64,000 nt of DNA from a virus. Under the pieces are notes generated by a model, which was given only the letters and a program-made list of their open reading frames with translations, made no database searches and was not told the origin of the DNA. Made by a program: the position numbers and the translations under genes. The stretch is taken from UHGV virus genome UHGV-0218015. One strand, 5' to 3'. Position 1 is the stretch's first letter. Every line of letters starts with the position of its first letter. This document shows, one piece after another, positions 9,867-54,278 of the stretch.

Positions 9867-9873
9867 GAGAACC

Positions 9874-10401
9874 ATGGCATATCGTGTCGATTTAACGAAA
9901 GCACCTAAACAAATTTTAGTAGACCGGATTAACTACGTATTTAGTCTATCCTATACTGCTGATAACATCGAGTTTAACGCAAACGGCGTTCAACCACTAA
10001 CTTTAGCAGAACGCCAACGTTACGGACTAGAATCAAAGGTTGCTGCCGTCTTCCGTAACGGCGTTGTCGGTAACCAGGAATTCATTTTAACTCGCGTTGA
10101 TTTGGCAACGTTCTTGGCCGATGAACCGGTGAGTGTACCGAAAGGCGCAGTAACGTCCAGCGAAGAGTTGGCTGATTATATCGTCGCACAAACAGGGCTC
10201 GACCTGCGTGCCGACGACATTATGATTGAGCCGATTTCAGAGGAACTGGATTCTTATGATGTTCGTCTCGTCCCGAATCATTTGTCTTTTAAAGGAACGA
10301 TTCCGGTCGTATTTACTGATTCCACTCCACGCAAATTGGCGTCTCTTGTGACGAAATTGGCGTTGGATGGGTTCCGCCCAGGAGAATTAATCAATGTCTA
10401 A
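9874..10401 (+). CDS. hypothetical protein
   Basis: ORF with ATG 8 nt after upstream stop. Confidence 0.5.
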   Translation: MAYRVDLTKAPKQILVDRINYVFSLSYTADNIEFNANGVQPLTLAERQRYGLESKVAAVFRNGVVGNQEFILTRVDLATFLADEPVSVPKGAVTSSEELADYIVAQTGLDLRADDIMIEPISEELDSYDVRLVPNHLSFKGTIPVVFTDSTPRKLASLVTKLALDGFRPGELINV

Positions 10402-19949: not shown

Positions 19950-20309
19950 GTGGCTTACAATCACAATTCCATCGTTCTGGCAAAACGTAAATTTGGCCTT
20001 CATTTGTCTTACGTAGTTTGTCATTTGACCACGAAAGACATTACCCAGCGTGAGCTTGCCCAGCTTGCGAAAGTTTCACAACCCGTTATCTCATCTATTA
20101 AGAACGAACGCGTAGAACGTTTAAGCTTGCCGATTATGATGAAAGTTGCTGATGCGATTCGTCTGAAATATCAGATTAGTTTTAATTCCGTTAAGGGTCG
20201 TTGCTCAGTAACCGTTCACGTAGAGTCCGCATTGGACTACGTTGCAAACACGTCCATTAAACGTACCAAGAAGAATGTGCGTTTTATCACTAACACTGTA
20301 ACACACTAA
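19950..20309 (+). CDS. helix-turn-helix DNA-binding protein (putative)
   Basis: ITQRELAQLAKVSQPVISSIKN is HTH-like; GTG start 8 nt after AAGGAG; preceded by promoter cassette. Confidence 0.4.
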   Translation: MAYNHNSIVLAKRKFGLHLSYVVCHLTTKDITQRELAQLAKVSQPVISSIKNERVERLSLPIMMKVADAIRLKYQISFNSVKGRCSVTVHVESALDYVANTSIKRTKKNVRFITNTVTH

Positions 20310-20330
20310 TCAACCTGAAGGAGTAATATC

Positions 20331-20987
20331 ATGGCACCGAAAACTAAAGAAACTGTAAAGAACGAGACTAAAGCCAACGAAGTTCAACCGGCTGCGAAGG
20401 TTGAACTTTTACCCTGCGTTAATGAAATAATTGGGGTGAAATTCTTAACTTTTAATCCGTATACTGACCTGGTTTTCGATTTTTATCAAGACCAGCCTTT
20501 CAACTTATTCACACTTGTCTGCACTTATAATGGCGACATTTTGGCGGTTGCGCCTGGCCTTAATAGAGACAAGTTACTTACAGGTACGGTTATTACTGAA
20601 ATTCTCCTGCGGTTAATGCATAAGTTTGAAGGGCCTGAACTTGACAAAATCGGTGTTAAGTTAGCTGACCTACTAGTCAATGCTGCCGACTGGTTGAGTT
20701 TTAACCCTTCTATCTATTTCCATTTCAATACAAATATTCTTCACGCCGTAACAGACGATGGTAAAAAGTATCGCATCTTAATTAAGGGTGGGGTGCAACA
20801 ACCTTTGTTCTCTAGACAAAACTGCCATATTAAGTTTTCGCCTGACTTGGTAGAAGTTTACGGCCAGCGAGTAGCGACTGGCCACTACGAGGTCCATCTC
20901 AGATTTTTCAATTACCTGTATGAAAAATTAGGGAAAGCTGGCATGACACCCAATCTTGCTTTCACAAGCTCTGCCCCTTTTGCGTGA
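20331..20987 (+). CDS. hypothetical protein
   Basis: ORF with AAGGAG SD; terminator follows. Confidence 0.5.
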   Translation: MAPKTKETVKNETKANEVQPAAKVELLPCVNEIIGVKFLTFNPYTDLVFDFYQDQPFNLFTLVCTYNGDILAVAPGLNRDKLLTGTVITEILLRLMHKFEGPELDKIGVKLADLLVNAADWLSFNPSIYFHFNTNILHAVTDDGKKYRILIKGGVQQPLFSRQNCHIKFSPDLVEVYGQRVATGHYEVHLRFFNYLYEKLGKAGMTPNLAFTSSAPFA

Positions 20988-29522: not shown

Positions 29523-29549
29523 TTTGATATTTAGCTGTAAAATGACTGT

Positions 29550-29598
29550 CTACCGCCCGATTCTATGGGCGGTAGATGTTTTTTATTTTTTTTTGATC
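29550..29598 (+). terminator. rho-independent terminator
   Basis: ctaccgccc...gggcggtag then long T-run. Confidence 0.75.
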
Positions 29599-29610: not shown

Positions 29611-30171
29611 GTGGCCACATACGTACCTGATTTAAGTCTGTCCTCAGCCGAATTGGTGGTCGCTTTAATCAACCACGATAACGGTTCACGGTTGTCTCTA
29701 AGCGAAATTCGTATTAGCAACACTATGGCAAACCTGTCCCCGACTACGTCGCGTCGTAACACACTGACAGAGATTACAAAAATCAGGAAACCTGATGGTG
29801 CTTCTGTAGTTGTTTATTACGACCGCTTGGATGCGGACAAAGTGTTAGCGTCCGAACCTATTTTGATTTCGTTAGATGGTACCGAAGACAACCTTCGTGA
29901 CATTTTAGGTGTTGTAAATGAATTCTGCGGAACGAACTTACAACCCGAGGATTTACATGCTTCAGATATCACTTTAGGTAACGATCCTATTGCTGTCAAC
30001 GTTGCTGACGATTCTCCAGCGTGGGTGAATGCGTTTATGGTGACGTTATTTGATAAAACTGAACGGGCATTAGCAAACGAAGAAGATGCAATCTTCTGTA
30101 TTGGTGACGATGCTGTTCTTACATTTGAGGTTCCAGATGGAGACTCCGCTGAAGAAAACCCGGCTACATGA
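29611..30171 (+). CDS. RBP-module accessory protein (paralog of 36262..36774)
   Basis: Track start 29524 lies inside terminator 29550-29598; GTG at 29611 after GGAGG is consistent with the paralog N-terminus (TYVPDLSLSS vs KFTPDLSLTS). Confidence 0.45.
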   Translation: MATYVPDLSLSSAELVVALINHDNGSRLSLSEIRISNTMANLSPTTSRRNTLTEITKIRKPDGASVVVYYDRLDADKVLASEPILISLDGTEDNLRDILGVVNEFCGTNLQPEDLHASDITLGNDPIAVNVADDSPAWVNAFMVTLFDKTERALANEEDAIFCIGDDAVLTFEVPDGDSAEENPAT

Positions 30172-30376
30172 ACTTGACGGTTTTTCTGGTAATGGAGGCC
30201 AAAGCAAACGTTTATCAAGACTTAGTAAACCCAGATCATGAGAACGCGGAGTTGGGCATCACTTTCACGTTAGAAGATGATGGATTAAAACCAGTATAAT
30301 AATCCGCTTATAAAAATGTTGGGGGAGGTGTTTTACCTTCCCAGATCTTTTAGCTCCAGATAGAGAATTAAATATC

Positions 30377-33300
30377 ATGGCTAAAGCGGTAAAGAAAATA
30401 CGTTTACACGACTTACATCCGTACACCGGGGATATCGGTGAAGGCGTTTTACTTTTTTCGAAAGACGAAAAAGATTATAAGTTACCAGTCCGCGAGATCG
30501 TTGCGGACATTGACACCGTCAGAAGTGCGGTTGCTGATGCACAAACGGCTGCGGCCAAATCACAACAGTCCGCAACAGAAGCTACGAAAGCTAAAGATTT
30601 AGCAGAAACAGCGAAGCAACAGACCACCACTTTAGCTTCCACAGTTAATGAGCAAGCGGGAACCGTCGCCACTAAAACTGCGGAGGTTAACAAAAAACAC
30701 GCTGAAGTTTTAGCAGCGAAAACTGCCGTAGATACTGTTTCACAATCAGTAAATGAGAAGGCTCAAGCTGTCGCCGCAAGCGAACAATCTGTGACAGCTG
30801 TAGCGGCTGATGTAACTAAGAAAGCAGAAACGGTTACGCAACGGGCCGGACAGGTTCAACAGACCGCTACCAGTATCGCAAATACTGCGGCTTCAATTGA
30901 GGCCAGTAAGGGCGCGGTGGAGAAGGTTGCTGCGCAGGTTACGAAAGATAAAGAAAGCTCAGAAGGCGCAGCTACACGCTCGGAGTCAGCCGCTCTGCGT
31001 GCGGAGAAAATCGCTGCACAGGGTTTAGTTGACGCTAGTACGACCGGTAAAGGTATCGTTAAACTTAACAATACCCTGACTAGCGAATCCGTGACGGAGG
31101 CTGCCACACCGTCCACGGTTAAACAGCTGAACGACGAATTACAGTTAAAAGCCGATAAACATTCGCCGAATTTTACGGGTAACCCGACATCACCAACGCC
31201 TCCAAAGGACTCGAATGACACGAGCATCTCCACAACGGCCTGGGTGCGTGCTGCTATCGCGGAATTGGTTGGTTCTTCACCTGAGACGTTAGATACCTTA
31301 GCGGAATTAGCTACGGCGTTAGGTAATGACCCTAACTTCGCAACAACGATTACTGAGAAACTTGCACAGAAGCAACCTATCAGTCCACTACTTACTGCTA
31401 TTGCCGCAGTCACAACCGCAGCAAACAAGCTCCCTTATTTCACTGGCACTAATAAAGTCGGGTTAACTGACTTTACAGAAACCGCCAGAACCTTGTTAGC
31501 AAAAGGGACAACTGCGGATATCATCAATTTCTTGGGATTAAAAGCCACTGTAGATAAAGCGAACTCTGCGTTACAGAAAAACTCTAACGGTGCTGATATC
31601 CCCAATAAAGAAACCTTTGCTCGCAATATTGGTCTATCTCCTGATACCTATCTGCGTTTCCGTGGTGAAATGCCCGCAGATGCTGATATTAACACATTTG
31701 CTCCAGATGCCAATTACACAGGAACATGGTCCAAGTCGACATCAACAAACGCATCGATAGCAAAACACTTCCCGGAAGACGGTGCGGTAGGTTATCTAGA
31801 AGTGTATAAAGCGGGCAACTACAGTGGAGCGCAACGTTTTACCTGCCGTAATGGTAACGTGTACAACCGCATGTTGTCAGCCGCGTGGAACGGAACTAAT
31901 GGCCCGTGGTCACCGTGGAGAATGGTAACTACAGGTGTACGCCCGTTATCTACATCGATCGATCTGAACTCCTTAGGCGGCGCTGAGCACATGGGTAACT
32001 GGCGTAACTCGTCCAGTTCGTTAGCGGTGTTCGACAGACATTATCCTGAAGAGGGCGGTAATGCGCAAGGCGTATTAGAAGTCATGGAAGGCGGTCTTTA
32101 TGGACGTTTACAACGTTACACCACTCGTCGTGGTACGATGTATGTCCGTGGTTTGACTGCGACTTGGGATTCGTCTAATCCGCAGTGGGAAGATTGGATT
32201 CAGGTTGGGTATCAGGTAGACGGTGCCTACTATAAGGGTAGCTTTAACGACTTAACTAAACCGGGTCGCTTTAGTGTTACCGGCGAGGCTACAGACGGTC
32301 CGTTAACAGACTCTGCTGGCGCAACCTTGCTAGGCGTTTGCGAAGTTACCTTACGCTTAGACGGTTCAGGTGTTGAACAAAATTATACCACATACGGTAC
32401 AGGCGCAACTTCGAAAGGTCGCAAGTTCCAACGAATTCGTACAGGAAATGCCTGGAGCGAATGGCGAGAGATTTTCACATCCTATTCACTCCCGTTGGCT
32501 TTAGGGATCGGTGGGGTTGCTGCTAAGGTAGATCCGTTAGACTGGCAAACCTTCGACTTCGTTCCTGGCCAGATGATAAGTACACCATTGAATACCATGA
32601 AAAACATTCCTGCGGGAATGGATTGGGGTGTTATCGACGGTAACTTGGTTACTATTCTTGTAGGGGCGTCGGAGGACACCGGTACTGGCCGGAGTATGTT
32701 GGTCTGGCGTGGTACAGTGTCTACTGCTAACTATCGCTTCTTTGCTGTTCGCGTCGCTGGTGAAAAGGGTAAACGTACTATTACTAGCCGCCAGATGCCC
32801 GTATTGAATGCAGCGCATACGTGGGCAGAAAAACAGACCTTTGCAAAAGGGTTATCAGGTGAGTTAACAGGCAATGCTGCTACGGCAACGAAACTGAAAA
32901 CAGCCCGTTTAATCGGCGGTGTAAGTTTCGACGGTAGCGGAGACATTAGCCTCCCTGGTGTAAACCAACAGGGTAATCAAAACACCTCTGGGAACGCGGG
33001 AACCGCAACCAAATTACAAACGGCTCGAAACATCAACGGTGTGAAATTTGATGGGTCTAGAGACATCAATATCAACACGTTGGTAGGACGTGGACGTGTT
33101 ACTGCACTGACTGGATCAAACAAAGGTACACCCGGTATTCAGATGTACGAAGTTTACAATAACGGTTATCCAACCGCTTATGGTAACTTACTGCATTTGG
33201 GCGGTTCTGCTGCGCTAGGCGAAGGGGAACTGTTAATCGGATGGTCGGGGACGAGCGGTGCGCACGCACCCGTTTATATTCGTAGTCGACGTGATACTGC

Positions 33301-34816
33301 TGATGCGCCGTGGTCAGATTGGGCACAAGTTTATACTGCCCGTGATAGCATTCCTGGTGTAAATGCCACAGGTAATCAGGATACTACCGGCAACGCCGCT
33401 ACCGCGACGAAACTGAAAACCGCTCGCAGGATCGGAGGCGTTAGCTTTGACGGTACAGGTGATATCAATTTACCGGGCGTTAACCAGCAAGGCAACCAGA
33501 ATACGACAGGTAATGCAGCGACCGCTACTAAGTTACAAACCGCACGTAAGATCGGCGGTGTGGTGTTCGATGGGACAAAAGACGTTAATCTTCCTGGTGT
33601 AAACCAAACCGGTAACCAATCGACTACGGGGAATGCGGCGACAGCGACTAAGCTACAGACTGCTCGAAATATAGGTGGCGTAGCTTTTGATGGTACTAAA
33701 GACATCAGTTTACCTGGAGTAAACCAAACAGGGAATCAGTCGACCACCGGAAACGCAGCCACGGCAACAAAGTTGCAAACCGCAAGAACCATCAATGGTA
33801 TTGCGTTTGATGGCACTAGAAATATATCGTTAGGGCCAGCCGAAATAGGTTGTCCGGCATCACCTAGTGGTTGGTTAGAAACTGGCGCTAATGGCGGTGC
33901 AATAACTACAGCACAGCTAGTGACGTTATTGAAAAATAACGGCGCATTTACCACAAGATCGTGGGTTGCTCGCTGTGCGTGGGCTTATGCCGCCAGTGCG
34001 TCCATACCTCACAGCGAGACGGGTTGTGGTGTCATTCCGTTAGCTGGGGCCGTTATAGAAGTCATTAGTAACGGCAACAGCACAAACAACTACACGATCC
34101 GTATAACGACCGCCACAACGACGAGCGTCGGCGGAGCACTCACTAATGCGGAGTTTATCTACGTATTTAACGGCGATGGATACTCACCAGGCTGGCGTCG
34201 TGCTTACAATACGAGAAACAAGCCAACTGCTGCGGAAGTGGGCGCGTTACCGTCAGGGGGCGGTACTGTAGGCGGTGATTTAACCGTTAATGGTAAATTG
34301 GCCACTAAATACCCTGATTTTCGAATCGCTTACGGTACCTACGGTTTTATTTTACGTAACGACGGTGCCAATACCTATTTCTTAGTAACCGACGCCGGAC
34401 AAGCCGCAGCGGGTTCCTGGAACGGATTACGCCCGTTGTCTTTTAATAATTCTAACGGCCAAGTAAACTTTGGACATAACGTTACTGGCAACGGTAACGG
34501 TTCGTTTAACGACGTACAGATTCGTTCTGACCGTCGTAACAAACGTAATCTGGTGAAGCTGGATAAAGCTTTGGATCGGTTAGAGTTACTAACCGGTTAT
34601 TTGTACGAAATTCAGCATCCTGATGACGGTTGGCAGACTTCTGTAGGTCTAATTGCTCAGGACGCATTAGAAGCGTTACCTGAACTTGTGTCAGAGGACG
34701 ACGATGCCATTTCAGGCGAAAAACGTTTACGTCTAAATTACAATGGCGTTATTGCGCTGTTAGTAGAGGGTATGAAGTCTCTTCGCCGAGAGCTTAAAGA
34801 ACTCAAGGGGAATTAA
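30377..34816 (+). CDS. tail fibre protein with C-terminal S74-type intramolecular chaperone
   Basis: 1479 aa; Ala-rich N-terminal region, TLDTLAELATALGNDPNF tail-fibre motif, six ~40-aa repeats (GNAATATKLQTAR..GGV.FDG), C-terminal SDRRNKRNLVKLDKALDRL...YNGVIALLVEGMKSL matching the autoproteolytic chaperone. Confidence 0.8.
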   Translation: MAKAVKKIRLHDLHPYTGDIGEGVLLFSKDEKDYKLPVREIVADIDTVRSAVADAQTAAAKSQQSATEATKAKDLAETAKQQTTTLASTVNEQAGTVATKTAEVNKKHAEVLAAKTAVDTVSQSVNEKAQAVAASEQSVTAVAADVTKKAETVTQRAGQVQQTATSIANTAASIEASKGAVEKVAAQVTKDKESSEGAATRSESAALRAEKIAAQGLVDASTTGKGIVKLNNTLTSESVTEAATPSTVKQLNDELQLKADKHSPNFTGNPTSPTPPKDSNDTSISTTAWVRAAIAELVGSSPETLDTLAELATALGNDPNFATTITEKLAQKQPISPLLTAIAAVTTAANKLPYFTGTNKVGLTDFTETARTLLAKGTTADIINFLGLKATVDKANSALQKNSNGADIPNKETFARNIGLSPDTYLRFRGEMPADADINTFAPDANYTGTWSKSTSTNASIAKHFPEDGAVGYLEVYKAGNYSGAQRFTCRNGNVYNRMLSAAWNGTNGPWSPWRMVTTGVRPLSTSIDLNSLGGAEHMGNWRNSSSSLAVFDRHYPEEGGNAQGVLEVMEGGLYGRLQRYTTRRGTMYVRGLTATWDSSNPQWEDWIQVGYQVDGAYYKGSFNDLTKPGRFSVTGEATDGPLTDSAGATLLGVCEVTLRLDGSGVEQNYTTYGTGATSKGRKFQRIRTGNAWSEWREIFTSYSLPLALGIGGVAAKVDPLDWQTFDFVPGQMISTPLNTMKNIPAGMDWGVIDGNLVTILVGASEDTGTGRSMLVWRGTVSTANYRFFAVRVAGEKGKRTITSRQMPVLNAAHTWAEKQTFAKGLSGELTGNAATATKLKTARLIGGVSFDGSGDISLPGVNQQGNQNTSGNAGTATKLQTARNINGVKFDGSRDININTLVGRGRVTALTGSNKGTPGIQMYEVYNNGYPTAYGNLLHLGGSAALGEGELLIGWSGTSGAHAPVYIRSRRDTADAPWSDWAQVYTARDSIPGVNATGNQDTTGNAATATKLKTARRIGGVSFDGTGDINLPGVNQQGNQNTTGNAATATKLQTARKIGGVVFDGTKDVNLPGVNQTGNQSTTGNAATATKLQTARNIGGVAFDGTKDISLPGVNQTGNQSTTGNAATATKLQTARTINGIAFDGTRNISLGPAEIGCPASPSGWLETGANGGAITTAQLVTLLKNNGAFTTRSWVARCAWAYAASASIPHSETGCGVIPLAGAVIEVISNGNSTNNYTIRITTATTTSVGGALTNAEFIYVFNGDGYSPGWRRAYNTRNKPTAAEVGALPSGGGTVGGDLTVNGKLATKYPDFRIAYGTYGFILRNDGANTYFLVTDAGQAAAGSWNGLRPLSFNNSNGQVNFGHNVTGNGNGSFNDVQIRSDRRNKRNLVKLDKALDRLELLTGYLYEIQHPDDGWQTSVGLIAQDALEALPELVSEDDDAISGEKRLRLNYNGVIALLVEGMKSLRRELKELKGN
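32833..33072 (+). repeat. in-frame 120-bp coding repeats, copies 1-2 (tail fibre)
   Basis: Units begin cctggtgtaaacc; encode GNAATATKL.TAR..GGV.FDG. Confidence 0.6.
33353..33832 (+). repeat. four tandem 120-bp coding repeats (tail fibre)
   Basis: Unit starts at 33353, 33473, 33593, 33713; protein-level conservation with synonymous divergence. Confidence 0.7.
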
Positions 34817-34821
34817 AGATA

Positions 34822-34848
34822 GGGGGAGTAATCCCCCTAATTTAGTTT
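34822..34848 (+). terminator. terminator candidate after tail fibre gene
   Basis: aggggg-agtaat-ccccct then aatttagttt. Confidence 0.4.
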
Positions 34849-34857
34849 GGAGGATTT

Positions 34858-35403
34858 ATGGGGGTAGCATCCGGCTGGGTTGGAAGCTCAGCAAAGGCAG
34901 TAACCGGTCAGGAGTGGATGAGTGTGGCAGGTAATAAGCTTAAACTGAGCACGCCATTTAACATGTCGCAGATGGTCGGGCGTAGCGTAGAGGATCTTAA
35001 ACTCGTTGTAGGCCGATCAACCTATGTTGTTTTGGTGCAGGCTACGAACACGCAGTGGGTTCCTATTACAAATACGTATGGGGGGTATTCGAACAACTCT
35101 ACAACAACGGGTGCTGGTTCTACAGTATCGAATCGTGTGCAAACACAAAATGCGGCCGGTTCGGTGTCAGGTTCGATCTTGGGTTGTAGCGTCACACATC
35201 TTAGCCAAGTACAAAATACTGGTATTATCTACATGGCCCTAACCAATGGACCAAATCAGAATATTACGCTTTCGTTTAACGGAACGAAGATTACTTTTCT
35301 ACCGTACTCCTACAGTAACGGCGTCCGGCGCTATGAGGCTAAGACGGCAACCAACTGGTTATTTAATCAGAACGGTGCAACAATTTCAATAAGTGTAGTC
35401 TAA
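34858..35403 (+). CDS. tail-fibre-associated protein (paralog of 35657..36163)
   Basis: N-terminus MGVASGWVGSSAKAVTGQEWMS matches the paralog; sits immediately after the fibre gene. Confidence 0.45.
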   Translation: MGVASGWVGSSAKAVTGQEWMSVAGNKLKLSTPFNMSQMVGRSVEDLKLVVGRSTYVVLVQATNTQWVPITNTYGGYSNNSTTTGAGSTVSNRVQTQNAAGSVSGSILGCSVTHLSQVQNTGIIYMALTNGPNQNITLSFNGTKITFLPYSYSNGVRRYEAKTATNWLFNQNGATISISVV

Positions 35404-35413
35404 GGACAGAAAG

Positions 35414-35644
35414 ATGTTAAGAAAAGTTTTACTGGGTTTCGCATTGCTTACAGTAAGTGGATGTCAACAACTACCCGAACCTGTATGTTACGGCACAGCT
35501 AAGCTGGGTAATGAAGAGACTACGATCAATATTTTCGACGTAAAAAAGCAGGGCAGATACACACTTTATAAAGCTGATCATCATTATAATTGGCGTTGGG
35601 TTGGGCGTGGTGCTTTCGATTCAATAACATGTAGAAAATCTTAA
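35414..35644 (+). CDS. small lipoprotein
   Basis: Signal peptide with lipobox LTVSGC; 76 aa. Confidence 0.5.
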   Translation: MLRKVLLGFALLTVSGCQQLPEPVCYGTAKLGNEETTINIFDVKKQGRYTLYKADHHYNWRWVGRGAFDSITCRKS

Positions 35645-35656
35645 CAGGAGATCGCG

Positions 35657-36163
35657 ATGGGGGGGGTAACCGGTTCGTGGGTCGGTTCTTCGGCCAAGAA
35701 CGAAACGGGCGAACAATGGATGAGCGCTGCTGGTAGTAAATTAGGATTGGGTAGACCTTTTATGATGAGTCAAATGGTGGGACGATCTATGGGCTGTAAA
35801 ATTGCAACCGCTGCATATAGCGATTCTTTAGGTAAGAAATGGGGCGCAGTAGGACCAAGCTGGCCGTTAAACCAGAAAAATCAGGGAACCATTCAAAACG
35901 CGGGTAACTGCGGGGTGGGAACTTTAGTAGGTATTGAGTTACAGTTAACGACGATAGTTGCCAACGCAAAGCCTACTTTAGCGGTTTACTTACAAGGAGG
36001 CAGAGCCTCTAACATTACCGTAAATTTAGGTGGTAACACCTGCGCGCTGGCCTATCAGCAGGTTATTAACGGACAGCATTATTACTGGACTAATAACATC
36101 AGCGCTGCGTTCCAAAACGTGATGAAATCGACAGGCGCACTGCGTGATTTGAGAATTAGCTAA
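35657..36163 (+). CDS. tail-fibre-associated protein (paralog), G8 tract at codons 1-4
   Basis: ATG GGG GGG GTA start; N-terminus matches 34858 gene. Confidence 0.45.
   Translation: MGGVTGSWVGSSAKNETGEQWMSAAGSKLGLGRPFMMSQMVGRSMGCKIATAAYSDSLGKKWGAVGPSWPLNQKNQGTIQNAGNCGVGTLVGIELQLTTIVANAKPTLAVYLQGGRASNITVNLGGNTCALAYQQVINGQHYYWTNNISAAFQNVMKSTGALRDLRIS
35659..35666 (+). repeat. G8 homopolymer at codons 1-4 of the 35657 gene
   Basis: atgggggggggta; the paralog at 34858 has only G5 here. Confidence 0.7.
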
Positions 36164-36197
36164 TTATTTTCAACTGAAAGCGGTTGAAAATAATCGT

Positions 36198-36207
36198 GGG
36201 GGGGGGG
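36198..36207 (+). repeat. G10 homopolymer in 5' region of the 36262 gene
   Basis: Preceded by AT-rich hairpin ttttcaac...gttgaaaa (36167-36190). Confidence 0.7.
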
Positions 36208-36261
36208 TGAATGTTTTTTAGTCAATATTTTATGACCCCCAACCGTAGGAGGTAAACATAC

Positions 36262-36774
36262 GTGGAAAAATTCACACCAGATTTATCACTAACTTCACTT
36301 AACATGGTTATTTCACTGGTTAACCATGACCTCCAACTTGACTTGCAAGAGAACGAGGTTGAAGTCAGTGACGTAAAAACCAGTGATGAAATGGATCGTG
36401 ACTCCACTGCCATTGTAAAGATTAAACGTCCTGGAAACAGAACGTTGCAAATCTACTACAACCGTTTAACCGCAGAGCGGTGGTTAAACCAACAACCTAT
36501 TCTGGTAAAAGTAAGAGGTGAAGGGTTTAATGCACACGATCTTATCGAATCCGTCAATGCCGTTTGTGGTGCTAACTTACAAACCGACGATTTAACCGAC
36601 CAGTCGTTCACGGTAGGTAAAGACGCGGTAACGCTTAGCATCGCTCCGAATTCCATCGCTTATAAAGGACAGTTCTCCGTGGTGGTTTTCGGCCCAGATG
36701 AAACACCGTGTGGCATCGGTGATGATTCTGTCGTGTTGACGTTTGACAATAAAATCTTAACTTTTGGAGAGTAG
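36262..36774 (+). CDS. RBP-module accessory protein (paralog of 29611..30171)
   Basis: GTG start after AGGAGG; sits directly upstream of the second RBP gene. Confidence 0.45.
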   Translation: MEKFTPDLSLTSLNMVISLVNHDLQLDLQENEVEVSDVKTSDEMDRDSTAIVKIKRPGNRTLQIYYNRLTAERWLNQQPILVKVRGEGFNAHDLIESVNAVCGANLQTDDLTDQSFTVGKDAVTLSIAPNSIAYKGQFSVVVFGPDETPCGIGDDSVVLTFDNKILTFGE

Positions 36775-36777
36775 TAG

Positions 36778-38898
36778 ATGAGTCAGCCAATTGGAAAGAA
36801 ACGTATCCATGAACTCGACAATTTCTCTGGCGATCTCAAAGGTGCGTTAGTTCTTCTTTCTAAGGAAGAAAAAGAATATAAAATTGATATTGCAAAACTT
36901 CAGGGCACGACGGAGCCGGAGTATTACTTCGTGATTCCTATAGCCGGGCAATCTAATGCGATGAGTTATGGTGAAGGGTTGCCTCTACCGGCGACGTTGG
37001 ACGCTCCCGATCCGCGAATTAAACAGATGGCGCGCCGTGCGAAGGTAACGCCTAATGGGGCTGATTGTAAATATAACGACGTCATTCCAGCGGATCACTG
37101 TCTGCACGACGTGCAAGATATGTCCAAATACTCGCATCCCAATGCCAATTTGAGCAAAGGTGAATACGGATGTGTGGGTCAAGGTCTACATATCGCGAAG
37201 CGTCTTCTCCCGTATATTCCTAAGAACGCCGGTATCTTACTAGTACCCTGCGCACGCGGCGGTTCTGCTTTCACGGGTGGTGCAGAAGGTACCTTCGATG
37301 AAGCCACAGGAGCCACTGAGTCGTCAATGCTATGGGGGGTGGAGAAACCGCTTTATAAAGATTTAGTTAGCCGGACCAAAAAAGCTCTAGAAGTTAATCC
37401 TAAAAATAAACTCTTGGCTGTAGTGTGGATGCAGGGAGAGTATGATCTGACTAAAGTACAATACGCACAACAACCAGCGTTATTTAACGCAATGGTAGAG
37501 CGTTTCCGAACTGATCTCTCTGACCATCTCTCTCAGATGCCCGAGTACGACACCGCCGAAGTACCATGGATCTGCGGGGACACTACCTATTATTGGAAGG
37601 AAAAATATCCTGCCCAATATGAAACCGTATACGGTAATTATCGTAACAATGAACAAAAAAATATCTTTTTTGTTCCATTCATGTACGACGATAATGGCCA
37701 ACGTGTACCGACTAATGATCCCACTGACGATCCTGATATCACTGGTGCGGCCTATTACGGTGCTGCCTCCCGTACTGTTAAAAACTGGACGTCTGAAACA
37801 AGGAATAGCCATTTCAGTTCTTGGGCACGACGCGGTATTATCTCAGAGAGAATAGCTGCCGAGATATTATCAAGAACAGCGATTGGTGCAATGTTCCTGA
37901 CGAAGAACGACACTAAGAGCTCCAAAGACAATAAGAATGTGGTAAGAAGCTATACCCCATTAGTAGAGTCTGTGGGTTATAACGGACGTCGTGGGGATGG
38001 TTCCCTGAAAGGGCAAGGTTGGAACAATATCGTTGATTGTAACGTAACCGTGCAAGATTCTGAGGATGGAAACGGGCATTTCGTCGAATTAAGAAAGGCT
38101 GTAAAGATGAAACCTTGGAATGTAACTAAGTCAATGACATCTGCTGCGGACATGATACGTTACGGTGGACGTCTGACCGTTACTTTTAGACTAAAAGGTG
38201 ATTTAGCAGCAGATCGTTTCGGATTAGGACTTTATTGGCGTATTTCCGCGTCCGACCTACCTTCTGGTACTACATTTGCTGACGCTGGTGTGGCTGAGAC
38301 GAACCCGTACCTAATGTCTTTTTTCTTACAGACCGACGCTACGAATCTTAATCTGATGCATCATAAAAAGCAAAATGCGAAATTAGGAACTTTTGGTGCG
38401 TACGATAATAACTGGCATACGCTTGAAATCATTTATCCTGGTGCCAATAAAACCACAGTCACACCTGTGCTGGACGGTACGAATGGTACTCCATTTGATC
38501 TGGCGAACAGTCCAGCTAAGACCGATTTGAACGAATTGGTTCTGACGGATATTACGAAAGTTACTGCCTATGATATCGATATTTCTAAGTTTGAGATCTC
38601 GGTCAATCGTGATTCTGGTAGCATAGTGTTATCTGAGGAAGATGTGTCGTCTTATGTGTATTTCCCACCCACCAACCGTGGCGGCCAACTTACTATTCCT
38701 GATCTAGAATATAGTGTGGGCAGAAATATTCAGATCGTGGCAAATAAGGCTGGTAAGATCACCGTTAAACCGGAAAATTCAAACGTTCTCATCACTCCAA
38801 AGAGTGGGACAGAAGGTCTTGCCAAACCCATTGATACCAATGAAAGTATTACGCTAATGCAGATTGGTTCCGATGGTAAAAGCTGGGTAGTTATTTAA
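36778..38898 (+). CDS. tailspike/RBP with SGNH (SASA-type) esterase domain
   Basis: N-terminal ~35 aa shared with the fibre at 30377; then IPIAGQSNAMSYGEG resembling the GQSN block of sialate O-acetylesterase/SGNH hydrolases. Confidence 0.55.
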   Translation: MSQPIGKKRIHELDNFSGDLKGALVLLSKEEKEYKIDIAKLQGTTEPEYYFVIPIAGQSNAMSYGEGLPLPATLDAPDPRIKQMARRAKVTPNGADCKYNDVIPADHCLHDVQDMSKYSHPNANLSKGEYGCVGQGLHIAKRLLPYIPKNAGILLVPCARGGSAFTGGAEGTFDEATGATESSMLWGVEKPLYKDLVSRTKKALEVNPKNKLLAVVWMQGEYDLTKVQYAQQPALFNAMVERFRTDLSDHLSQMPEYDTAEVPWICGDTTYYWKEKYPAQYETVYGNYRNNEQKNIFFVPFMYDDNGQRVPTNDPTDDPDITGAAYYGAASRTVKNWTSETRNSHFSSWARRGIISERIAAEILSRTAIGAMFLTKNDTKSSKDNKNVVRSYTPLVESVGYNGRRGDGSLKGQGWNNIVDCNVTVQDSEDGNGHFVELRKAVKMKPWNVTKSMTSAADMIRYGGRLTVTFRLKGDLAADRFGLGLYWRISASDLPSGTTFADAGVAETNPYLMSFFLQTDATNLNLMHHKKQNAKLGTFGAYDNNWHTLEIIYPGANKTTVTPVLDGTNGTPFDLANSPAKTDLNELVLTDITKVTAYDIDISKFEISVNRDSGSIVLSEEDVSSYVYFPPTNRGGQLTIPDLEYSVGRNIQIVANKAGKITVKPENSNVLITPKSGTEGLAKPIDTNESITLMQIGSDGKSWVVI

Positions 38899-38904
38899 TT
38901 TAAA

Positions 38905-38945
38905 CCGTAGGATGGACTTAGTCCATCCTACGGTTTTTATATTTT
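38905..38945 (+). terminator. rho-independent terminator after tailspike gene
   Basis: 13-bp stem ccgtaggatggac / gtccatcctacgg then T-run. Confidence 0.8.
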
Positions 38946-46566: not shown

Positions 46567-47415
46567 ATGTCTCTTACGTCAAAACAGAAACTGCTAAAAC
46601 TCATCAACACTGAAAACAATATTGTTCCGCCATTGACCTTCAGTGATGTTGATATCGGCGAACCTACTGGTACTGGGGTTGATACCCAGGTGGTTCTGAC
46701 TTCTAAACTCAAAGGCGATGAGTCTACTACTTTAACGGTGACTTACCATCGTCGTAATTTGCCCGAATACCTAACAGGTGAGTTGGTATTCGGTAACGAC
46801 GGTGTTGTAACCGCCTCAGATTTGCTTAACGCAATCAACGCAAAATACGATTTAAATATTCTGCCATCGGATATCGTTGATGCGAAAGTTGAAGGTAAAA
46901 CCCACCAACTTACCGCTAACGAGAAATCTTACGAGTGGTGTGGCGAAGTGACGCTTACGCTACGCGATCCTATTGATCTGGCTAAATTGCTACCTGTTAC
47001 TCAATTAGAAAACCTGGTAGAGTATCCGTCCACTAAGAAAGGTAACGCTGCGGTTTATTCTTACCCAATTGACTTCACCGCAGAAAAAGATTACCTTGAT
47101 CCAATTACCATCAACGGCACCGTAGACTTAGTAGAGTTAGCTACTAAACTGACTAACGTTGTTGATGAGAAATGGGTAAGCGTACCTAAGAACGCTGCTA
47201 ATAACTTGTTCGGTGCTAAGGTTATCTACGATGGCCCTACCGCAGGTTTCGAAGGCGCAAATGCGAAGTACACGCGTGTGCTGGTACTCGCCCTAAGCGG
47301 TATGTGTTCTAACCTGACCGGTAAACTGTTAATTCACTTTAACGGAACCGATCGTCCGAAGTCGAAGATTGAATTAGCCAAGACTAATTCGGTCTTACCG
47401 GGATTCTTAGATTAA
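46567..47415 (+). CDS. hypothetical protein, member of a four-gene family
   Basis: N-terminus KQKLLKLINTENN..FSDVDIGEP resembles 47429, 50573 and 51171 gene products. Confidence 0.5.
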   Translation: MSLTSKQKLLKLINTENNIVPPLTFSDVDIGEPTGTGVDTQVVLTSKLKGDESTTLTVTYHRRNLPEYLTGELVFGNDGVVTASDLLNAINAKYDLNILPSDIVDAKVEGKTHQLTANEKSYEWCGEVTLTLRDPIDLAKLLPVTQLENLVEYPSTKKGNAAVYSYPIDFTAEKDYLDPITINGTVDLVELATKLTNVVDEKWVSVPKNAANNLFGAKVIYDGPTAGFEGANAKYTRVLVLALSGMCSNLTGKLLIHFNGTDRPKSKIELAKTNSVLPGFLD

Positions 47416-47428
47416 GAGGATTACAGTA

Positions 47429-47905
47429 ATGACCAGTCAAGAAACTATTTTCGACCTTATTAAAAAGGCTAACCCAGACGCCGAGCTCGACACCGCCAAA
47501 GTCACATTGGGTGAGCCCGTCGTAAGTACCGGTACGTACAACACCGAAATTACGGTTGTGCCGGTTAAAAATCTCGGTTATGTTAATAAGCAAACGTTCC
47601 AGTATAACCGCATTGATGCAGGTTTGTATTTCCTCAACGTATTGCCGAAACTGTTAGTTGAGACAGCAACCACGACTGCGGACCTGCTGCCTGTAATTAA
47701 CGAGCAGTATGGCTTAACCCTTACCGAAGACGATGTGTGGGTAGAGCAGGTTGGTGCGTTGCCGCTAGACGGCAGTGCAATCGAGCACGGTATTTTCTTC
47801 CGCCCCGAGTGTCTAACCTGGGTCGGTGGTTTTACAGTGCGTGTTGCGCGTAAACCGTCTGTCGAGACACCGCCAGCTAAGCCATCGCGCGCTAAGAAGA
47901 AATAA
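47429..47905 (+). CDS. hypothetical protein, family member
   Basis: TIFDLIKKANPDAELDTAKVTLGEP; basic C-terminal tail; terminator follows. Confidence 0.5.
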   Translation: MTSQETIFDLIKKANPDAELDTAKVTLGEPVVSTGTYNTEITVVPVKNLGYVNKQTFQYNRIDAGLYFLNVLPKLLVETATTTADLLPVINEQYGLTLTEDDVWVEQVGALPLDGSAIEHGIFFRPECLTWVGGFTVRVARKPSVETPPAKPSRAKKK

Positions 47906-52445: not shown

Positions 52446-52993
52446 TCATCTTCTCCTTTAACTAAACCTAGCTCAATTAACAATTCAAAATCGATTTGGC
52501 GAAATTTGTTATCAAAACCAGAATCCCAATCGATGTGTAATCCTTGTCGTTCTTCATCGGTAAGTTCAGGATAAATTAAATCATGGAACGCTTCACGTTC
52601 CTCGTAAAATCCATCGATAGTAGAATCTGGATTCCGCATTGCGTAAATCGTGATGCCCGGAAAGGATAATCCTAATGCTGTTATAGATTCGACGCTTGGT
52701 TCTTGCAAGGCCCTGCGTAATAGCACGATTTTATGTCGTGGAAAATCTAGTACACGTTGTTCAAACCCAGGATTCCGTTTCTCAATTTCTGTAACTGAAA
52801 GATCGGTGAGTTCTGTGCAATACATTGGGATAACTACAGTTACTCCGTGGCGAATTAATAATCGTTTAACATCGTCAGTGAAGTCTTCACCATTAATTTG
52901 CACATAACAACCAAACAATTTTGTAGTTTCTAAAAATTTTTCCAGAAAACGGAATTTACGCTTCGTAATATTGTGGATCAGAATTGGCTTCAT
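52421..52993 (-). CDS. hypothetical protein
   Basis: ORF overlapping both neighbours. Confidence 0.45.
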   Translation of the reverse strand: MKPILIHNITKRKFRFLEKFLETTKLFGCYVQINGEDFTDDVKRLLIRHGVTVVIPMYCTELTDLSVTEIEKRNPGFEQRVLDFPRHKIVLLRRALQEPSVESITALGLSFPGITIYAMRNPDSTIDGFYEEREAFHDLIYPELTDEERQGLHIDWDSGFDNKFRQIDFELLIELGLVKGEDECLLLTKA

Positions 52994-54278
52994 CTTTGGT
53001 TTCTCTCAATTGTTTTTCTTTCTGGGTACGTTCACGTACGCAACGAGGGCAATAACACATGCTATTGTCATGAAAATCTTTCACTGACGTCGTGCCCATT
53101 TTCTGTTTCCAATATTCCGCAACCATCAACTTTGCAGTTGTCCAGCCGCATTGACGGCGTTCAGCGTGATAAGCTTTGCGATCTTCTAGCGTCCCTTCTC
53201 CATTCTCGTAAGATGCAGCCGCACAACTACCACAAGCGTGCTTCATTGGACAACCTAAACAGGTTTCAGGATAGTTGGTGTATTGCGTCTGAATCTCTTC
53301 CAGCAATTTCCCGTCATCTAAGCTAACGAATTCCCGGCCAACTAATTCAAATACGGCAGAACGTGATGTTACGGTTGACATGAAACGGTTACAACCGAAG
53401 ATCTTACGATCAAATCCTAAGCAGGTCATGTGTGTTAACGTACCGCAGAACGGGCGTAAACGTTCTGGATTCAAACGTACAGTATCGTTATACAATAACT
53501 GATCACGCCAGTTTGGTTCCCAGATAGTATCAAAATCTAACCCGTCTGGAATGATGTGCGACAAAGTGTTACGTGGGTTGGTGTGTAAGCCCTTCTCAAC
53601 CCAATAATCAACCACGTCCATCATCTGCAATGCGATTGAAGTAGCCATGCTCCGTGGCATAATGTCTTCGAAGGTTACGTTGCCAGAAATAGTTCCGCCG
53701 CCAGTAATATCAATTAATGATTTCATTCCAGCAGCATAGAACGGTAACGTTTCCAACGTAAAGGTCGCTTTTACACCAAGTTCTGCAATACCGACTTCTT
53801 TTAAGTAGTTATAGCCCCGCACAGCGGCCTCGTAAGATCCTTCACGAGTTGTTGTAAAAATCCGGTACTTATCGTGCGATTCGGGCAATCCATCAATAGA
53901 CACGCCGATAGAAAGCCTGTCTTTCCAACGTTCAATAATTTCTCTATTCAAAGGTCTATCTAACAACGTTCCGTTAGTAGAGATGCTAAACATAAACGGC
54001 CGATTATGTTTTTCGCATAACTCTTCTGCGGTTTCAAATGCCGCCTTTAATAGTTTAGGCTGCATAAACGGCTCACCACCGATGATATCGATAACGACCT
54101 CGATGTTTGTCAGATCTTTATCTCGTTCAAAACAAGCGTGTAGAAAATCAACAATATCCGCCGCTTTGTTATTACGGGGATACTTACGTTCGTAACAATA
54201 CTCACAGTCCAAGTTACACGATAAATTTGTAACAATTTGATAAGTCAGTTGTTTTGGATAACTATTTTCTTGACTCAT
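52956..54278 (-). CDS. radical SAM enzyme with SPASM-type C-terminal domain (anSME-like peptide maturase candidate)
   Basis: N-terminal CNLDCEYCYE (CxxxCxxC), GGEP; C-terminal Cys clusters CLGCPMKHACGSC and CYCPRC typical of SPASM/twitch domains. Confidence 0.75.
   Translation of the reverse strand: MSQENSYPKQLTYQIVTNLSCNLDCEYCYERKYPRNNKAADIVDFLHACFERDKDLTNIEVVIDIIGGEPFMQPKLLKAAFETAEELCEKHNRPFMFSISTNGTLLDRPLNREIIERWKDRLSIGVSIDGLPESHDKYRIFTTTREGSYEAAVRGYNYLKEVGIAELGVKATFTLETLPFYAAGMKSLIDITGGGTISGNVTFEDIMPRSMATSIALQMMDVVDYWVEKGLHTNPRNTLSHIIPDGLDFDTIWEPNWRDQLLYNDTVRLNPERLRPFCGTLTHMTCLGFDRKIFGCNRFMSTVTSRSAVFELVGREFVSLDDGKLLEEIQTQYTNYPETCLGCPMKHACGSCAAASYENGEGTLEDRKAYHAERRQCGWTTAKLMVAEYWKQKMGTTSVKDFHDNSMCYCPRCVRERTQKEKQLRETKDEANSDPQYYEA

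What the first reader, a model, noticed from the sequence alone, without database searches (positions are those of the whole stretch)
29611..38898. Two receptor-binding modules with a shared N-terminal anchor and different distal domains
The 1479-aa fibre and the 706-aa tailspike start with a similar ~35-aa segment (KKIRLHDLHPYTGDIGEGVLLFSKDEKDYKL vs KKRIHELDNFSGDLKGALVLLSKEEKEYKI) but diverge afterwards into a repeat-containing fibre with an S74 chaperone versus an SGNH-esterase-like domain. Each is preceded by a paralogous ~170-186-aa protein. This is the pattern of exchangeable RBPs docking to the same virion site, implying dual receptor specificity, one of them probably an O-acetylated polysaccharide.
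Basis: partly seen in the sequence, partly recalled or inferred. Interest (0 to 1): 0.5.

Follow-up and report, generated by a model that had tools for sequence, protein, structure and literature searches.

The report
Two-cassette receptor-binding locus of jumbo phage
A giant SPN3US-like phage carries two receptor-binding proteins, a long fibre and a sialic-acid O-acetyl esterase, that share a 40-residue docking peptide, and each sits next to its own copy of a baseplate-periphery protein; this is a modular variant of a known multi-receptor strategy.

Summary
The 1479-aa fibre and the 706-aa protein share an N-terminal ~40-aa segment (14/36 identical, E 2e-9). A profile built only from other phages finds just these two proteins in the window. 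The two small upstream proteins are paralogues (34% identity, E 2e-33).

The "tailspike" is a NanS/NanS-p sialate 9-O-acetylesterase plus lectin cassette, with the catalytic Ser59 and His345 conserved. Its usual capsid-binding DUF1737 domain is replaced by the anchor.

The fibre ends in a T2/S16-type tip with an S74 chaperone.

Relatives keep the anchor and DUF7941 pairs but swap the cargo. SPN3US has one cassette, this clade has two, and KpGz_1 has at least five anchor-bearing genes.

I read the locus as two co-expressed docking cassettes rather than two proteins competing for one site. Contact between DUF7941 and the anchor is inferred, not shown. Whether the esterase acts on a bacterial polysaccharide or on host mucin is open.

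It is a new variant of a known kind, of moderate interest.

The parts
29547..29578 (+). Terminator-like hairpin (13-bp stem followed by a T run) that closes the upstream unit, immediately before the locus
   Evidence: It lies inside the longer TTG-initiated ORF, which favours the GTG start at 29611.
29611..30171 (+). DUF7941-A, 186 aa. A short member of the chimallivirus DUF7941 family (globular N-terminal domain plus a short C-terminal tail). Proposed baseplate-periphery adaptor for the fibre.
30377..30496 (+). A-type N-terminal anchor of the fibre (aa 1-40, MAKAVKKIRLHDLHPYTGDIGEGVLLFSKDEKDYKLP...)
   Evidence: 55% identical to the anchor of the SPN3US virion protein gp123.
30377..34816 (+). 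Long tail fibre, 1479 aa. It comprises the anchor, an Ala/Gln/Thr-rich segment, a Phage_fiber_2 repeat (aa 221-260), 40-aa repeats (about aa 823-1165, nt 32843-33871), a gp34/Mu-S-like tip (aa 1256-1383, nt 34142-34525) and an S74 intramolecular chaperone (aa 1384-1479, nt 34526-34813).
   Evidence: Pfam hits. PDB matches to Mu S, T4 gp34 and S16 gp37 (6F45_A). Repeats and the SDRRNK motif at aa 1384. The shaft is 80-96% conserved in relatives and the tip is swapped.
34858..35403 (+). Adhesin 1, 181 aa. A gp38-type N-terminal attachment domain plus a receptor domain of the Stx2-phage-86 type.
   Evidence: Gp38_N, 72.7 bits. S16 gp38 (6F45_D), E 9e-6. phrog_1121. 69% identical to the 'tail fiber adhesin' of Stx2 phage 86, POCJ13 and phi296.
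35414..35644 (+). Cor-type superinfection-exclusion lipoprotein, 76 aa (lipobox VSGC). It forms a unit with adhesin 1, as in Stx2 phage 86.
   Evidence: phrog_1119, E 1.3e-25. Same adhesin-cor order in NC_008464. Absent from the orthologous loci L006 and L011.
35657..36163 (+). Adhesin 2, 168 aa. A gp38-type N-terminal domain (67% identical to that of adhesin 1 over 43 aa) plus a receptor domain of the P13374/phi191 type.
   Evidence: 93-98% conserved in relatives. Nucleotides 35678-35812 are 96% identical to E. coli phage CMS-2020a.
36262..36774 (+). DUF7941-B, 170 aa. A paralogue of DUF7941-A and the proposed adaptor for the esterase.
   Evidence: Pfam DUF7941, 51.6 bits. 34% identical to A, E 2e-33. 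72-90% identical to the B-type copies in L006, L011 and L018.
36778..36897 (+). B-type N-terminal anchor of the esterase (aa 1-40, MSQPIGKKRIHELDNFSGDLKGALVLLSKEEKEYKI...)
   Evidence: pLDDT is below 50 when modelled alone.
36910..37869 (+). NanS-type sialate 9-O-acetylesterase domain (aa 45-364). Ser59 lies in the GQSN motif and His345 in SHFSS.
   Evidence: 3PT5, E 3e-122. Foldseek TM 0.84, 57% identity. Residue positions. Both residues are invariant in 47 homologues.
37975..38607 (+). NanS-p lectin-like jelly-roll domain (DUF6645, aa 400-610), preceded by a disordered linker (aa 368-388)
   Evidence: 6YP6, E 1.7e-38. TM 0.90 to 6YP6 and 0.72-0.75 to the Vibrio cholerae sialidase sialic-acid-binding domain 2W68. 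Pfam DUF6645, 105.8 bits.
38608..38898 (+). C-terminal beta-rich domain (aa 611-706) plus stop codon. It is absent from Stx-phage NanS-p but shared with Salmonella prophage homologues.
38902..38936 (+). Terminator-like hairpin (16-bp stem followed by a T run) that closes the locus

Best explanation
The block 29611-38898 is the variable host-recognition locus of an SPN3US/phiEaH2-like jumbo phage. It holds two docking cassettes that are expressed together.

Each cassette is a short DUF7941 protein followed by a receptor-binding protein that begins with a ~40-aa anchor peptide. The DUF7941 protein has the fold of phiKZ gp127, which sits at the outer rim of the baseplate.

Proposed mechanism (inferred): the DUF7941 protein is incorporated at the baseplate periphery, or into the DUF7941 filaments attached there. 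[quoted passage not shown] The A pair and the B pair have diverged, so the two cargoes occupy separate sites on the same virion.

Cassette A carries a long trimeric fibre. Its S74 chaperone is predicted to cleave itself off at Arg1383|Ser1384. That exposes a T2/S16-type tip, which can take either of two gp38-type adhesins that share the attachment domain but differ in the receptor domain. The result would be mixed fibre tips. The Cor lipoprotein encoded with adhesin 1 would block the corresponding receptor in infected cells.

Cassette B carries a NanS/NanS-p esterase-lectin module. It would bind sialoglycans and remove 9-O-acetyl groups from sialic acid, either on a sialic-acid-containing capsule or O-antigen of the host or on gut mucin.

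Shown here: homologies, folds, catalytic residues, synteny and cargo swapping. Inferred: DUF7941-anchor contact, presence on the virion, simultaneous display and substrates.
For: Anchor:
- The similarity is significant and occurs only in these two window proteins.
- The same peptide heads SPN3US gp123 and Asesino gp140, five spike-like genes in KpGz_1 and about 20 proteins among 1.84 billion representatives. Those proteins have unrelated distal parts of 98-1494 aa.
- SPN3US gp123 was detected in virions by mass spectrometry and was not among the proteins assigned to the head (PMC5694885 Table S1).

DUF7941:
- Pfam hits.
- AF2 model with pLDDT 81.6.
- In phiKZ, gp127 ends the gp139 band of the fibre-attachment platform (PMC13250141).
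- The Goslar preprint shows that DUF7941 proteins are abundant in virions and form filaments. Some are fused directly to carbohydrate-binding, glycoside-hydrolase or LRR domains. This is a Rosetta-stone argument for a link between DUF7941 and receptor-binding proteins.

Pairing:
- DUF7941 genes sit next to anchor genes in SPN3US, Lh1B, Asesino, KpGz_1, L006, L011 and L018.
- The A pair is closer to SPN3US gp122/gp123 (48% and 55%) than the B pair is (33% and 43%). DUF7941 and anchor identities co-vary with r = 0.91.
- The B-type DUF7941 stays with the B-type anchor when the cargo changes.

Fibre and adhesins.

Esterase.

Transcription: the locus is bracketed by terminator-like hairpins.
Against: - No direct evidence exists for contact between DUF7941 and the anchor. 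No multimer prediction could be run.
- SPN3US gp122, the orthologue of DUF7941-A, was NOT detected in wild-type virions by mass spectrometry (PMC5694885). The short DUF7941 proteins could therefore be assembly factors rather than structural adaptors.
- The DUF7941-to-anchor ratio is not always 1:1. KpGz_1 has 4 DUF7941 genes to 5 anchor genes. In L018 one DUF7941 gene precedes two anchor genes, and the fibre follows a gp124-like gene.
- The co-variation statistic is confounded by shared phylogeny.
- SPN3US paralog family B is the family to which Ali et al. tentatively assigned gp122, so it is probably DUF7941. Its members were found in tailless particles and called head proteins. That conflicts with a purely baseplate location.
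- NanS-p relatives are capsid decorations or soluble enzymes that act on host mucin, not proven receptor-binding proteins.
- The fibre must be a trimer, while the oligomeric state of the esterase is unknown.
Confidence: 0.6

Rival explanations
1. The two anchors compete for one and the same docking site, so virions carry a stochastic or regulated mixture of fibre and esterase. The DUF7941 proteins are non-structural, cargo-specific assembly chaperones.
For: - The anchors share one core motif (K-K-x-[RI]-[LI]-H-[DE]-L ... L-[LF]-S-K-[DE]-E-K-[DE]-Y-K).
- SPN3US gp122 is absent from the virion proteome, while gp123 is present.
- The DUF7941-to-anchor ratio departs from 1:1 in L018 and KpGz_1.
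Against: - The DUF7941 fold equals that of phiKZ gp127, a built-in baseplate component. Goslar DUF7941 proteins are abundant in virions.
- The A and B anchors are only about 32-39% identical to each other, yet each is 91-98% conserved among relatives. That suggests two separate specificities.
- Phages with one to at least five anchor genes exist. That fits adding sites better than sharing one site.
Confidence: 0.2
2. The 706-aa protein is attached to the virion but is not a receptor-binding protein for the bacterium. It would be an environment-directed enzyme, like NanS-p of Stx phages. It would deacetylate and bind 9-O-acetylated sialic acids of gut mucin, helping the phage move through or stay in mucus, or feeding the host. 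After processing at the disordered linkers it may be released.
For: - 51-53% identity to Stx-phage NanS-p over about 80% of its length.
- phi24B gp84 is a capsid decoration that is proteolytically processed, and mucin is its discussed substrate.
- The linker at aa 368-388 is predicted to be disordered.
- The lectin domain resembles the sialic-acid-binding domain of a sialidase.
- In relatives, a variable G tract uncouples the esterase from its anchor, which suggests the attachment is dispensable.
Against: - The capsid-binding DUF1737 domain has been replaced by the anchor used by tail proteins of this lineage.
- The cassette sits in the receptor-binding locus, inside one terminator-bounded unit.
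- Esterase tailspikes that act on bacterial polysaccharides are well documented in other phages (PMC11126041).
- A homologue fused to a lambda Stf-type tail-fibre N-terminus exists (P0006).
Confidence: 0.3
3. The N-terminal similarity has no docking role. It would be a remnant of a local duplication or recombination joint, or a shared translation-initiation region.
For: The two cassettes look like a tandem duplication of a DUF7941-plus-anchor unit.
Against: - The peptide is conserved at the protein level across phages whose portal-like virion proteins are only about 73% identical, and in the more distant KpGz_1. It is always at the extreme N-terminus of otherwise unrelated proteins.
- The anchor-bearing SPN3US gp123 is a virion protein.
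Confidence: 0.04

Closest known systems
Chimallivirus DUF7941 proteins (phiKZ gp126/gp127; Goslar gp22, gp23, gp86, gp92, gp161)
   Different: The window proteins are short (170-186 aa: N-terminal domain plus a ~25-aa tail). They are not fused to a binding or enzymatic domain. Instead, the cargo is a separate gene product carrying a 40-aa anchor. This split arrangement is not described in the Goslar preprint or the phiKZ paper. The SPN3US orthologue was not seen in virions.
SPN3US gp122-gp123-gp124 (and Asesino gp139-141)
   Same: Orthologous single cassette at the same genomic position: a DUF7941 gene followed by a protein with the same anchor. gp123 and gp124 are virion proteins that were not among those assigned to the head.
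   Different: In SPN3US the anchor heads a 156-aa protein, which is followed by a separate 1005-aa tail protein without an anchor. Here the anchor is fused directly to a 1479-aa fibre, and a second cassette with an esterase has been added.
NanS (E. coli YjhS, PDB 3PT5) and prophage NanS-p (933W; phi24B gp84, PDB 6YP6)
   Same: The catalytic domain is 57% identical to NanS and keeps the Ser-His pair. It has the same lectin-like C-terminal domain and the same disordered inter-domain linker.
   Different: The N-terminal DUF1737 capsid-binding domain is replaced by the tail-type anchor. There is an extra ~95-aa C-terminal domain, shared with Salmonella prophage homologues. The gene is in a lytic jumbo phage rather than next to stx in a lambdoid prophage.
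T2/T6/S16-type distal long-tail-fibre tip (gp37 with a cleaved C-terminal chaperone, plus the gp38 adhesin) and the tail-fibre/adhesin/cor unit of short-tailed Stx phages
   Same: S74 chaperone, similarity to the S16 gp37 tip, and a Gp38_N attachment domain on the downstream proteins. The adhesin-cor gene order is identical to Stx2 phage 86.
   Different: There are two tandem adhesins with different receptor domains. Neither has the polyglycine-rich PF05268 domain, although the relative L011 has it in slot 1. The fibre is attached to a chimallivirus baseplate through the lineage-specific anchor.
Multi-RBP phages with a conserved N-terminal docking module and an esterase tailspike (E. coli phage G7C gp63.1/gp66; Acinetobacter SGNH/SASA tailspikes; CBA120 and phiKp24 branched systems)
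   Same: Works alike: several receptor-binding proteins with exchangeable distal domains are displayed together through conserved N-terminal modules. One of them is a polysaccharide deacetylase.
   Different: No sequence relationship of the anchor or adaptor was detected. The docking partner here is a DUF7941 protein specific to chimalliviruses. (The G7C and CBA120 comparisons rest on my own knowledge, not on a test run here.)

Membership tests
DUF7941 (chimallivirus peripheral-baseplate/filament proteins) | Matches Pfam PF25613 above the gathering score | tested here: met
   65.1 and 51.6 bits against a cut-off of 27, covering profile positions 3-154 of 276.
DUF7941 (chimallivirus peripheral-baseplate/filament proteins) | N-terminal globular domain with the fold of phiKZ gp127 | tested here: met
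DUF7941 (chimallivirus peripheral-baseplate/filament proteins) | Linker plus C-terminal globular domain that docks on the next protomer | tested here: not met
   Only a ~25-35-aa tail follows the N-terminal domain, which resembles Goslar gp23 rather than gp22. Full-length members are elsewhere in the window, for example 46567-47415.
DUF7941 (chimallivirus peripheral-baseplate/filament proteins) | Present in the virion at the baseplate periphery | not testable with these tools
NanS / NanS-p sialate 9-O-acetylesterase | SASA catalytic domain homologous to NanS over its full length | tested here: met
   PF03629, 45.7 bits against 24.8. 3PT5, E 3e-122, aa 45-364. TM 0.84.
NanS / NanS-p sialate 9-O-acetylesterase | Catalytic Ser (GQSN) and His conserved | tested here: met
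   Ser59 and His345 align with the NanS Ser and His and are invariant in 47 homologues. Their identity as the catalytic dyad is recalled from the NanS structure paper and was not re-read here.
NanS / NanS-p sialate 9-O-acetylesterase | C-terminal lectin-like domain (DUF6645) of the prophage form | tested here: met
   105.8 bits. 6YP6, E 1.7e-38. TM 0.90.
NanS / NanS-p sialate 9-O-acetylesterase | N-terminal DUF1737 capsid-binding domain of NanS-p | tested here: not met
   No PF08410 hit. Residues 1-44 are the SPN3US-type anchor instead.
NanS / NanS-p sialate 9-O-acetylesterase | Esterase activity on Neu5,9Ac2 | not testable with these tools
   Needs an enzyme assay.
T2/S16-type fibre tip with gp38 adhesin | C-terminal S74 intramolecular chaperone on the fibre and similarity to the S16 gp37 tip | tested here: met
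   PF13884, 39.9 bits. 6F45_A, E 9e-13 over aa 1339-1477. SDRRNK motif at aa 1384.
T2/S16-type fibre tip with gp38 adhesin | Downstream protein with a Gp38_N attachment domain | tested here: met
   72.7 and 67.1 bits against a cut-off of 25 for the two adhesins. 6F45_D, E 9e-6.
T2/S16-type fibre tip with gp38 adhesin | Polyglycine-rich receptor domain (PF05268) | tested here: not met
   Absent from both window adhesins. Present in adhesin 1 of the relative L011. The window adhesins belong to the Stx-phage 'tail fiber adhesin' family phrog_1121.
Cor superinfection-exclusion lipoprotein | Family profile match and lipoprotein signal | tested here: met
   phrog_1119, E 1.3e-25, full length. Lipobox LTVSGC seen in the sequence. 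Same position as cor in Stx2 phage 86.

The most novel reading that the evidence does not exclude
SPN3US-like chimalliviruses may have a plug-and-play docking system. A ~40-aa anchor peptide would pair with a short DUF7941 adaptor at the baseplate rim. This would let them capture host-recognition modules from unrelated phages: a T-even/Stx-phage fibre tip with its adhesins, and the NanS-p esterase that is a capsid decoration in Stx phages.

In sister genomes a hypermutable G7-G10 tract sits exactly at the anchor/esterase junction. It could act as a phase switch that couples or uncouples the enzyme from the virion, giving mixed progeny.
Probability: 0.3. Interest if true: 0.7.

Novelty: new variant of a known kind. 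Interest (0 to 1): 0.5.

Why it matters
How jumbo chimalliviruses attach their host-recognition proteins is barely known. DUF7941 proteins were linked to the baseplate rim only in 2026 structures and preprints.

This locus gives a simple, testable rule: a short DUF7941 gene next to a protein that starts with the anchor. The rule identifies the receptor-binding proteins of SPN3US-like phages and points to where new specificities could be grafted for host-range engineering.

The locus also shows the NanS-p sialate esterase moved from a capsid-binding domain to a tail-type anchor. That bears on the open question of what this widespread phage enzyme is for.

Tried and rejected
- Megablast of the locus against 50,697 phage records found no close relative, only a 135-nt match inside adhesin 2.
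- A sequence search of DUF7941-A against the PDB gave nothing even at E 10. The link to phiKZ gp127 came only from fold comparison.
- A profile search with the nine-anchor alignment in the word-indexed 5.8-billion-protein database returned only four short fragments. This is a sensitivity limit for a 45-aa query. The exhaustive HMMER search of representatives was used instead. Its profile was narrow, so KpGz-type anchors were probably missed.
- I tried to model DUF7941-B plus the esterase anchor as one read-through chain. The key DUF7941-anchor contact therefore remains untested.
- No similarity was found between the anchor and any other window ORF or the C-terminal parts of full-length DUF7941 paralogues. 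The idea that the anchor mimics the DUF7941 linker hairpin rests only on a loose strand-turn-strand resemblance.
- Term searches of the SPN3US supplement for 'gp123' found nothing. The table had to be read directly.
- I considered a T5-like or Rak2-like origin for the window. I rejected it after the 905-aa portal-like virion protein (annotated as portal in one relative) matched phiEaH2/SPN3US at about 73%.


Full report
**1. What is there**

The window is part of a jumbo phage of the SPN3US/phiEaH2 group (Chimalliviridae). PHROG hits include the polymerase, internal head protein and large virion proteins typical of this group. The 905-aa portal-like virion protein is about 73% identical to those of phiEaH2, Asesino and SPN3US. 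No phage in the INPHARED collection is close at the nucleotide level.

Between two strong terminator-like hairpins (29547-29578 and 38902-38936), seven genes lie on the + strand:

| Gene | Coordinates | Size |
|---|---|---|
| DUF7941-A | 29611-30171 | 186 aa |
| Fibre | 30377-34816 | 1479 aa |
| Adhesin 1 | 34858-35403 | 181 aa |
| Cor lipoprotein | 35414-35644 | 76 aa |
| Adhesin 2 | 35657-36163 | 168 aa |
| DUF7941-B | 36262-36774 | 170 aa |
| Esterase | 36778-38898 | 706 aa |

**2.

- The first 36 residues of the two large proteins align without gaps. They are 14/36 identical and 75% similar, with E 2e-9. The local score is 86, against a maximum of 49 in 20,000 shuffles.
- A profile built only from other phages' sequences picks out exactly these two proteins among 254 window ORFs (E 3e-14 and 1e-8).
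- The two small proteins are paralogues (34% identity, E 2e-33), and both are Pfam DUF7941.
- The S74 chaperone and the esterase domain are both supported by HMMs.

**3. The anchor is a lineage-wide docking peptide**

- SPN3US and Asesino have one cassette at the syntenic position. It consists of a DUF7941 gene (SPN3US gp122), then a 156-aa protein with the same N-terminus (gp123, MATVVKKKRLHELDSYDGD...EKEYKLP), then a 1005-aa tail protein (gp124).
- In the published SPN3US virion proteome, gp123 and gp124 are present and are not among the proteins assigned to the head. gp122 was not detected (PMC5694885).
- The Klebsiella/Serratia jumbo phage KpGz_1 has five spike-like genes that begin with the motif, interleaved with four DUF7941 genes.
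- An exhaustive HMMER search of 1.84 billion representative proteins finds only about 20 carriers. Their distal parts are unrelated and range from 98 to 1494 aa.
- The peptide is therefore rare, restricted to this lineage, always N-terminal and attached to varied cargo. That is what one expects of a docking module.

**4. DUF7941**

- In phiKZ, gp127 ends the gp139 band of the 'star lobe', which is the platform to which the fibres attach (PMC13250141).
- The Goslar preprint (10.64898/2026.04.21.720040) reports several relevant points:
  - DUF7941 is specific to chimalliviruses and abundant in virions.
  - It forms head-to-tail oligomers in which a linker docks on the next N-terminal domain.
  - Three Goslar proteins fuse it directly to carbohydrate-binding, glycoside-hydrolase or LRR domains.
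- The window proteins are the split version of that fusion: a short DUF7941 protein plus a separate cargo that carries an anchor. Neither paper describes this arrangement.
- Three further DUF7941 paralogues lie elsewhere in the window.

**5. Pairing and exchange**

- Orthologous loci from metagenomes keep the two-cassette layout (L006, L007, L008, L011, L013).
- The A pair is the orthologue of SPN3US gp122/gp123 (48% and 55% identity). The B pair is the diverged duplicate (33% and 43%). Each anchor type is 91-98% conserved among relatives.
- In L018 a B-type DUF7941 (72% identical to the window's) precedes a B-type anchor fused to a 710-aa Ig/beta-propeller-like protein instead of the esterase. 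The A-type anchor there heads a fibre with a different tip (Collar domain plus a Tfa-type chaperone).
- The adaptor and anchor are therefore constant while the cargo is swapped.
- The ratio is not strictly 1:1 in L018 and KpGz_1. The DUF7941/anchor co-variation (r = 0.91) is confounded by phylogeny.

**6. Cassette A: the fibre**

- The shaft is 80-96% conserved among relatives, but the last ~280 residues are exchanged.
- The window tip resembles Mu S and the T4 gp34 C-terminal domain, followed by the S16 gp37 tip and chaperone. The S74 motif SDRRNK starts at Ser1384, which leaves a 96-aa chaperone.
- The two downstream proteins have the gp38 N-terminal attachment domain and are 67% identical over 43 aa. 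Their receptor domains differ.
- Adhesin 1 is 69% identical to the adhesin of Stx2 phage 86 and comes with the same cor gene behind it.
- Adhesin 2 is 59-63% identical to the adhesin of P13374/phi191-type Stx phages and of CMS-2020a.
- In L011 the same fibre tip is followed by a classical 260-aa polyglycine gp38 in slot 1, and adhesin 2 is retained.
- I infer that the two adhesins are alternative caps for the same tip. This is not shown.

**7. Cassette B: the esterase**

- Residues 45-364 are 57% identical to E. coli NanS (3PT5; E 3e-122). They retain Ser59 (GQSN) and His345.
- Residues 400-610 match the lectin-like domain of phi24B NanS-p (6YP6). They also resemble the sialic-acid-binding domain of Vibrio cholerae sialidase.
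- Residues 611-706 form a beta-rich domain shared with Salmonella prophage homologues.
- The anchor (aa 1-44) and the linker (aa 368-388) are predicted to be disordered in the monomer.
- The same esterase-lectin cassette occurs behind other N-terminal modules. One is DUF1737, shown by cryo-EM to bind the phi24B capsid (10.64898/2026.04.10.717836). Another is a lambda Stf-type tail-fibre N-terminus (P0006).
- In this phage the cassette has been moved onto the tail-type anchor.
- Esterase tailspikes, including SASA-like ones, are known in other phages (PMC11126041).
- Whether this enzyme targets an O-acetylated sialic-acid polymer on the host or gut mucin cannot be decided here.

**8. Verdict**

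The shared anchor, the exchangeable distal domains and the esterase all hold. "Same virion site", "tailspike" and "dual" need revision.

The system works like other multi-RBP phages with conserved docking modules. The docking partner is a DUF7941 protein specific to chimalliviruses, and the split anchor arrangement appears not to have been described in the library I could search.

I rate it a new variant of a known kind, with interest 0.5. The weakest step is the physical contact between DUF7941 and the anchor, which I could not test.

Noticed in passing
L011 10126-10134 (also L013 and L014); window equivalent 36904-36912: Sister genomes have a homopolymeric G tract exactly at the anchor/esterase junction. 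G9 gives a 45-aa anchor-only ORF plus a 663-aa esterase ORF (P0123 and P0182, several independent samples). G8 gives a 61-aa ORF (P0124). G7 (P0189, 707 aa) and G10 (P0184, 708 aa, 7 contigs) are in frame. This looks like a phase-variable tract that couples or uncouples the esterase from its anchor. The window has the interrupted sequence CAGGGCACG, which locks it ON.
   Followed up: yes
window 34858-35403 and 35657-36163: There are two tandem gp38-type adhesin genes with a shared attachment domain and different receptor domains. They match two different adhesin types of short-tailed Stx phages. Across relatives slot 1 is hypervariable (27-36% identity, and a true T2-type gp38 in L011), while slot 2 is 93-98% conserved.
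   Followed up: yes
window 35414-35644: A Cor superinfection-exclusion lipoprotein gene sits between the two adhesin genes, in the same adhesin-cor order as in Stx2 phage 86. It is absent from the orthologous loci L006 and L011. It hints at which outer-membrane receptor adhesin 1 uses.
   Followed up: partly
window 35678-35812: 135 nt at the start of adhesin 2 are 96% identical to E. coli phage CMS-2020a (CP054387). This was the only near-identical nucleotide match of the whole locus in the phage collection. It suggests recent exchange with E. coli phages and an E. coli/Shigella/Salmonella host. Partial 88-90% homologues of DUF7941-A also occur in such assemblies.
   Followed up: partly
window 46567-47415, about 47430-47902, and about 9870-10398: Three further DUF7941 paralogues are present, one of them full length at 282 aa. 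The Goslar preprint places the family at the baseplate. Ali et al. suggested that SPN3US gp122 may belong to 'paralog family B', whose members were assigned to the head because they are present in tailless particles. The two assignments conflict.
   Followed up: partly
L005 (KpGz_1) 7988-8018 and 20673-20703; recombinase 19998-20648: A perfect 31-nt inverted repeat flanks a 12.6-kb block that holds the tailspike/DUF7941 array and a serine recombinase (invertase-like) gene. Each arm lies just upstream of an outward-facing anchor-bearing spike gene. This may be an invertible host-range switch.
   Followed up: partly
L011 9696-9965; L018 7354-7977: L018 has a third anchor-bearing gene (207 aa, MAELVGKVRVHELPSLSED...) between DUF7941-B and the B-type cargo. 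L011 keeps only an 89-aa remnant of its C-terminus. In the window it is deleted completely: the DUF7941-B stop codon is three bases from the esterase start.
   Followed up: partly
window 52956-55200 (- strand): Two adjacent radical-SAM-domain proteins (440 and 312 aa; phrog_1802) are encoded in the leftward-transcribed part of the window.
   Followed up: no
window 59869-63918 (- strand), residues about 840-859: The anchor profile gives a weak internal match (about 10 bits, E 0.008-0.018) in the 1349-aa virion protein. It is probably chance.
   Followed up: no
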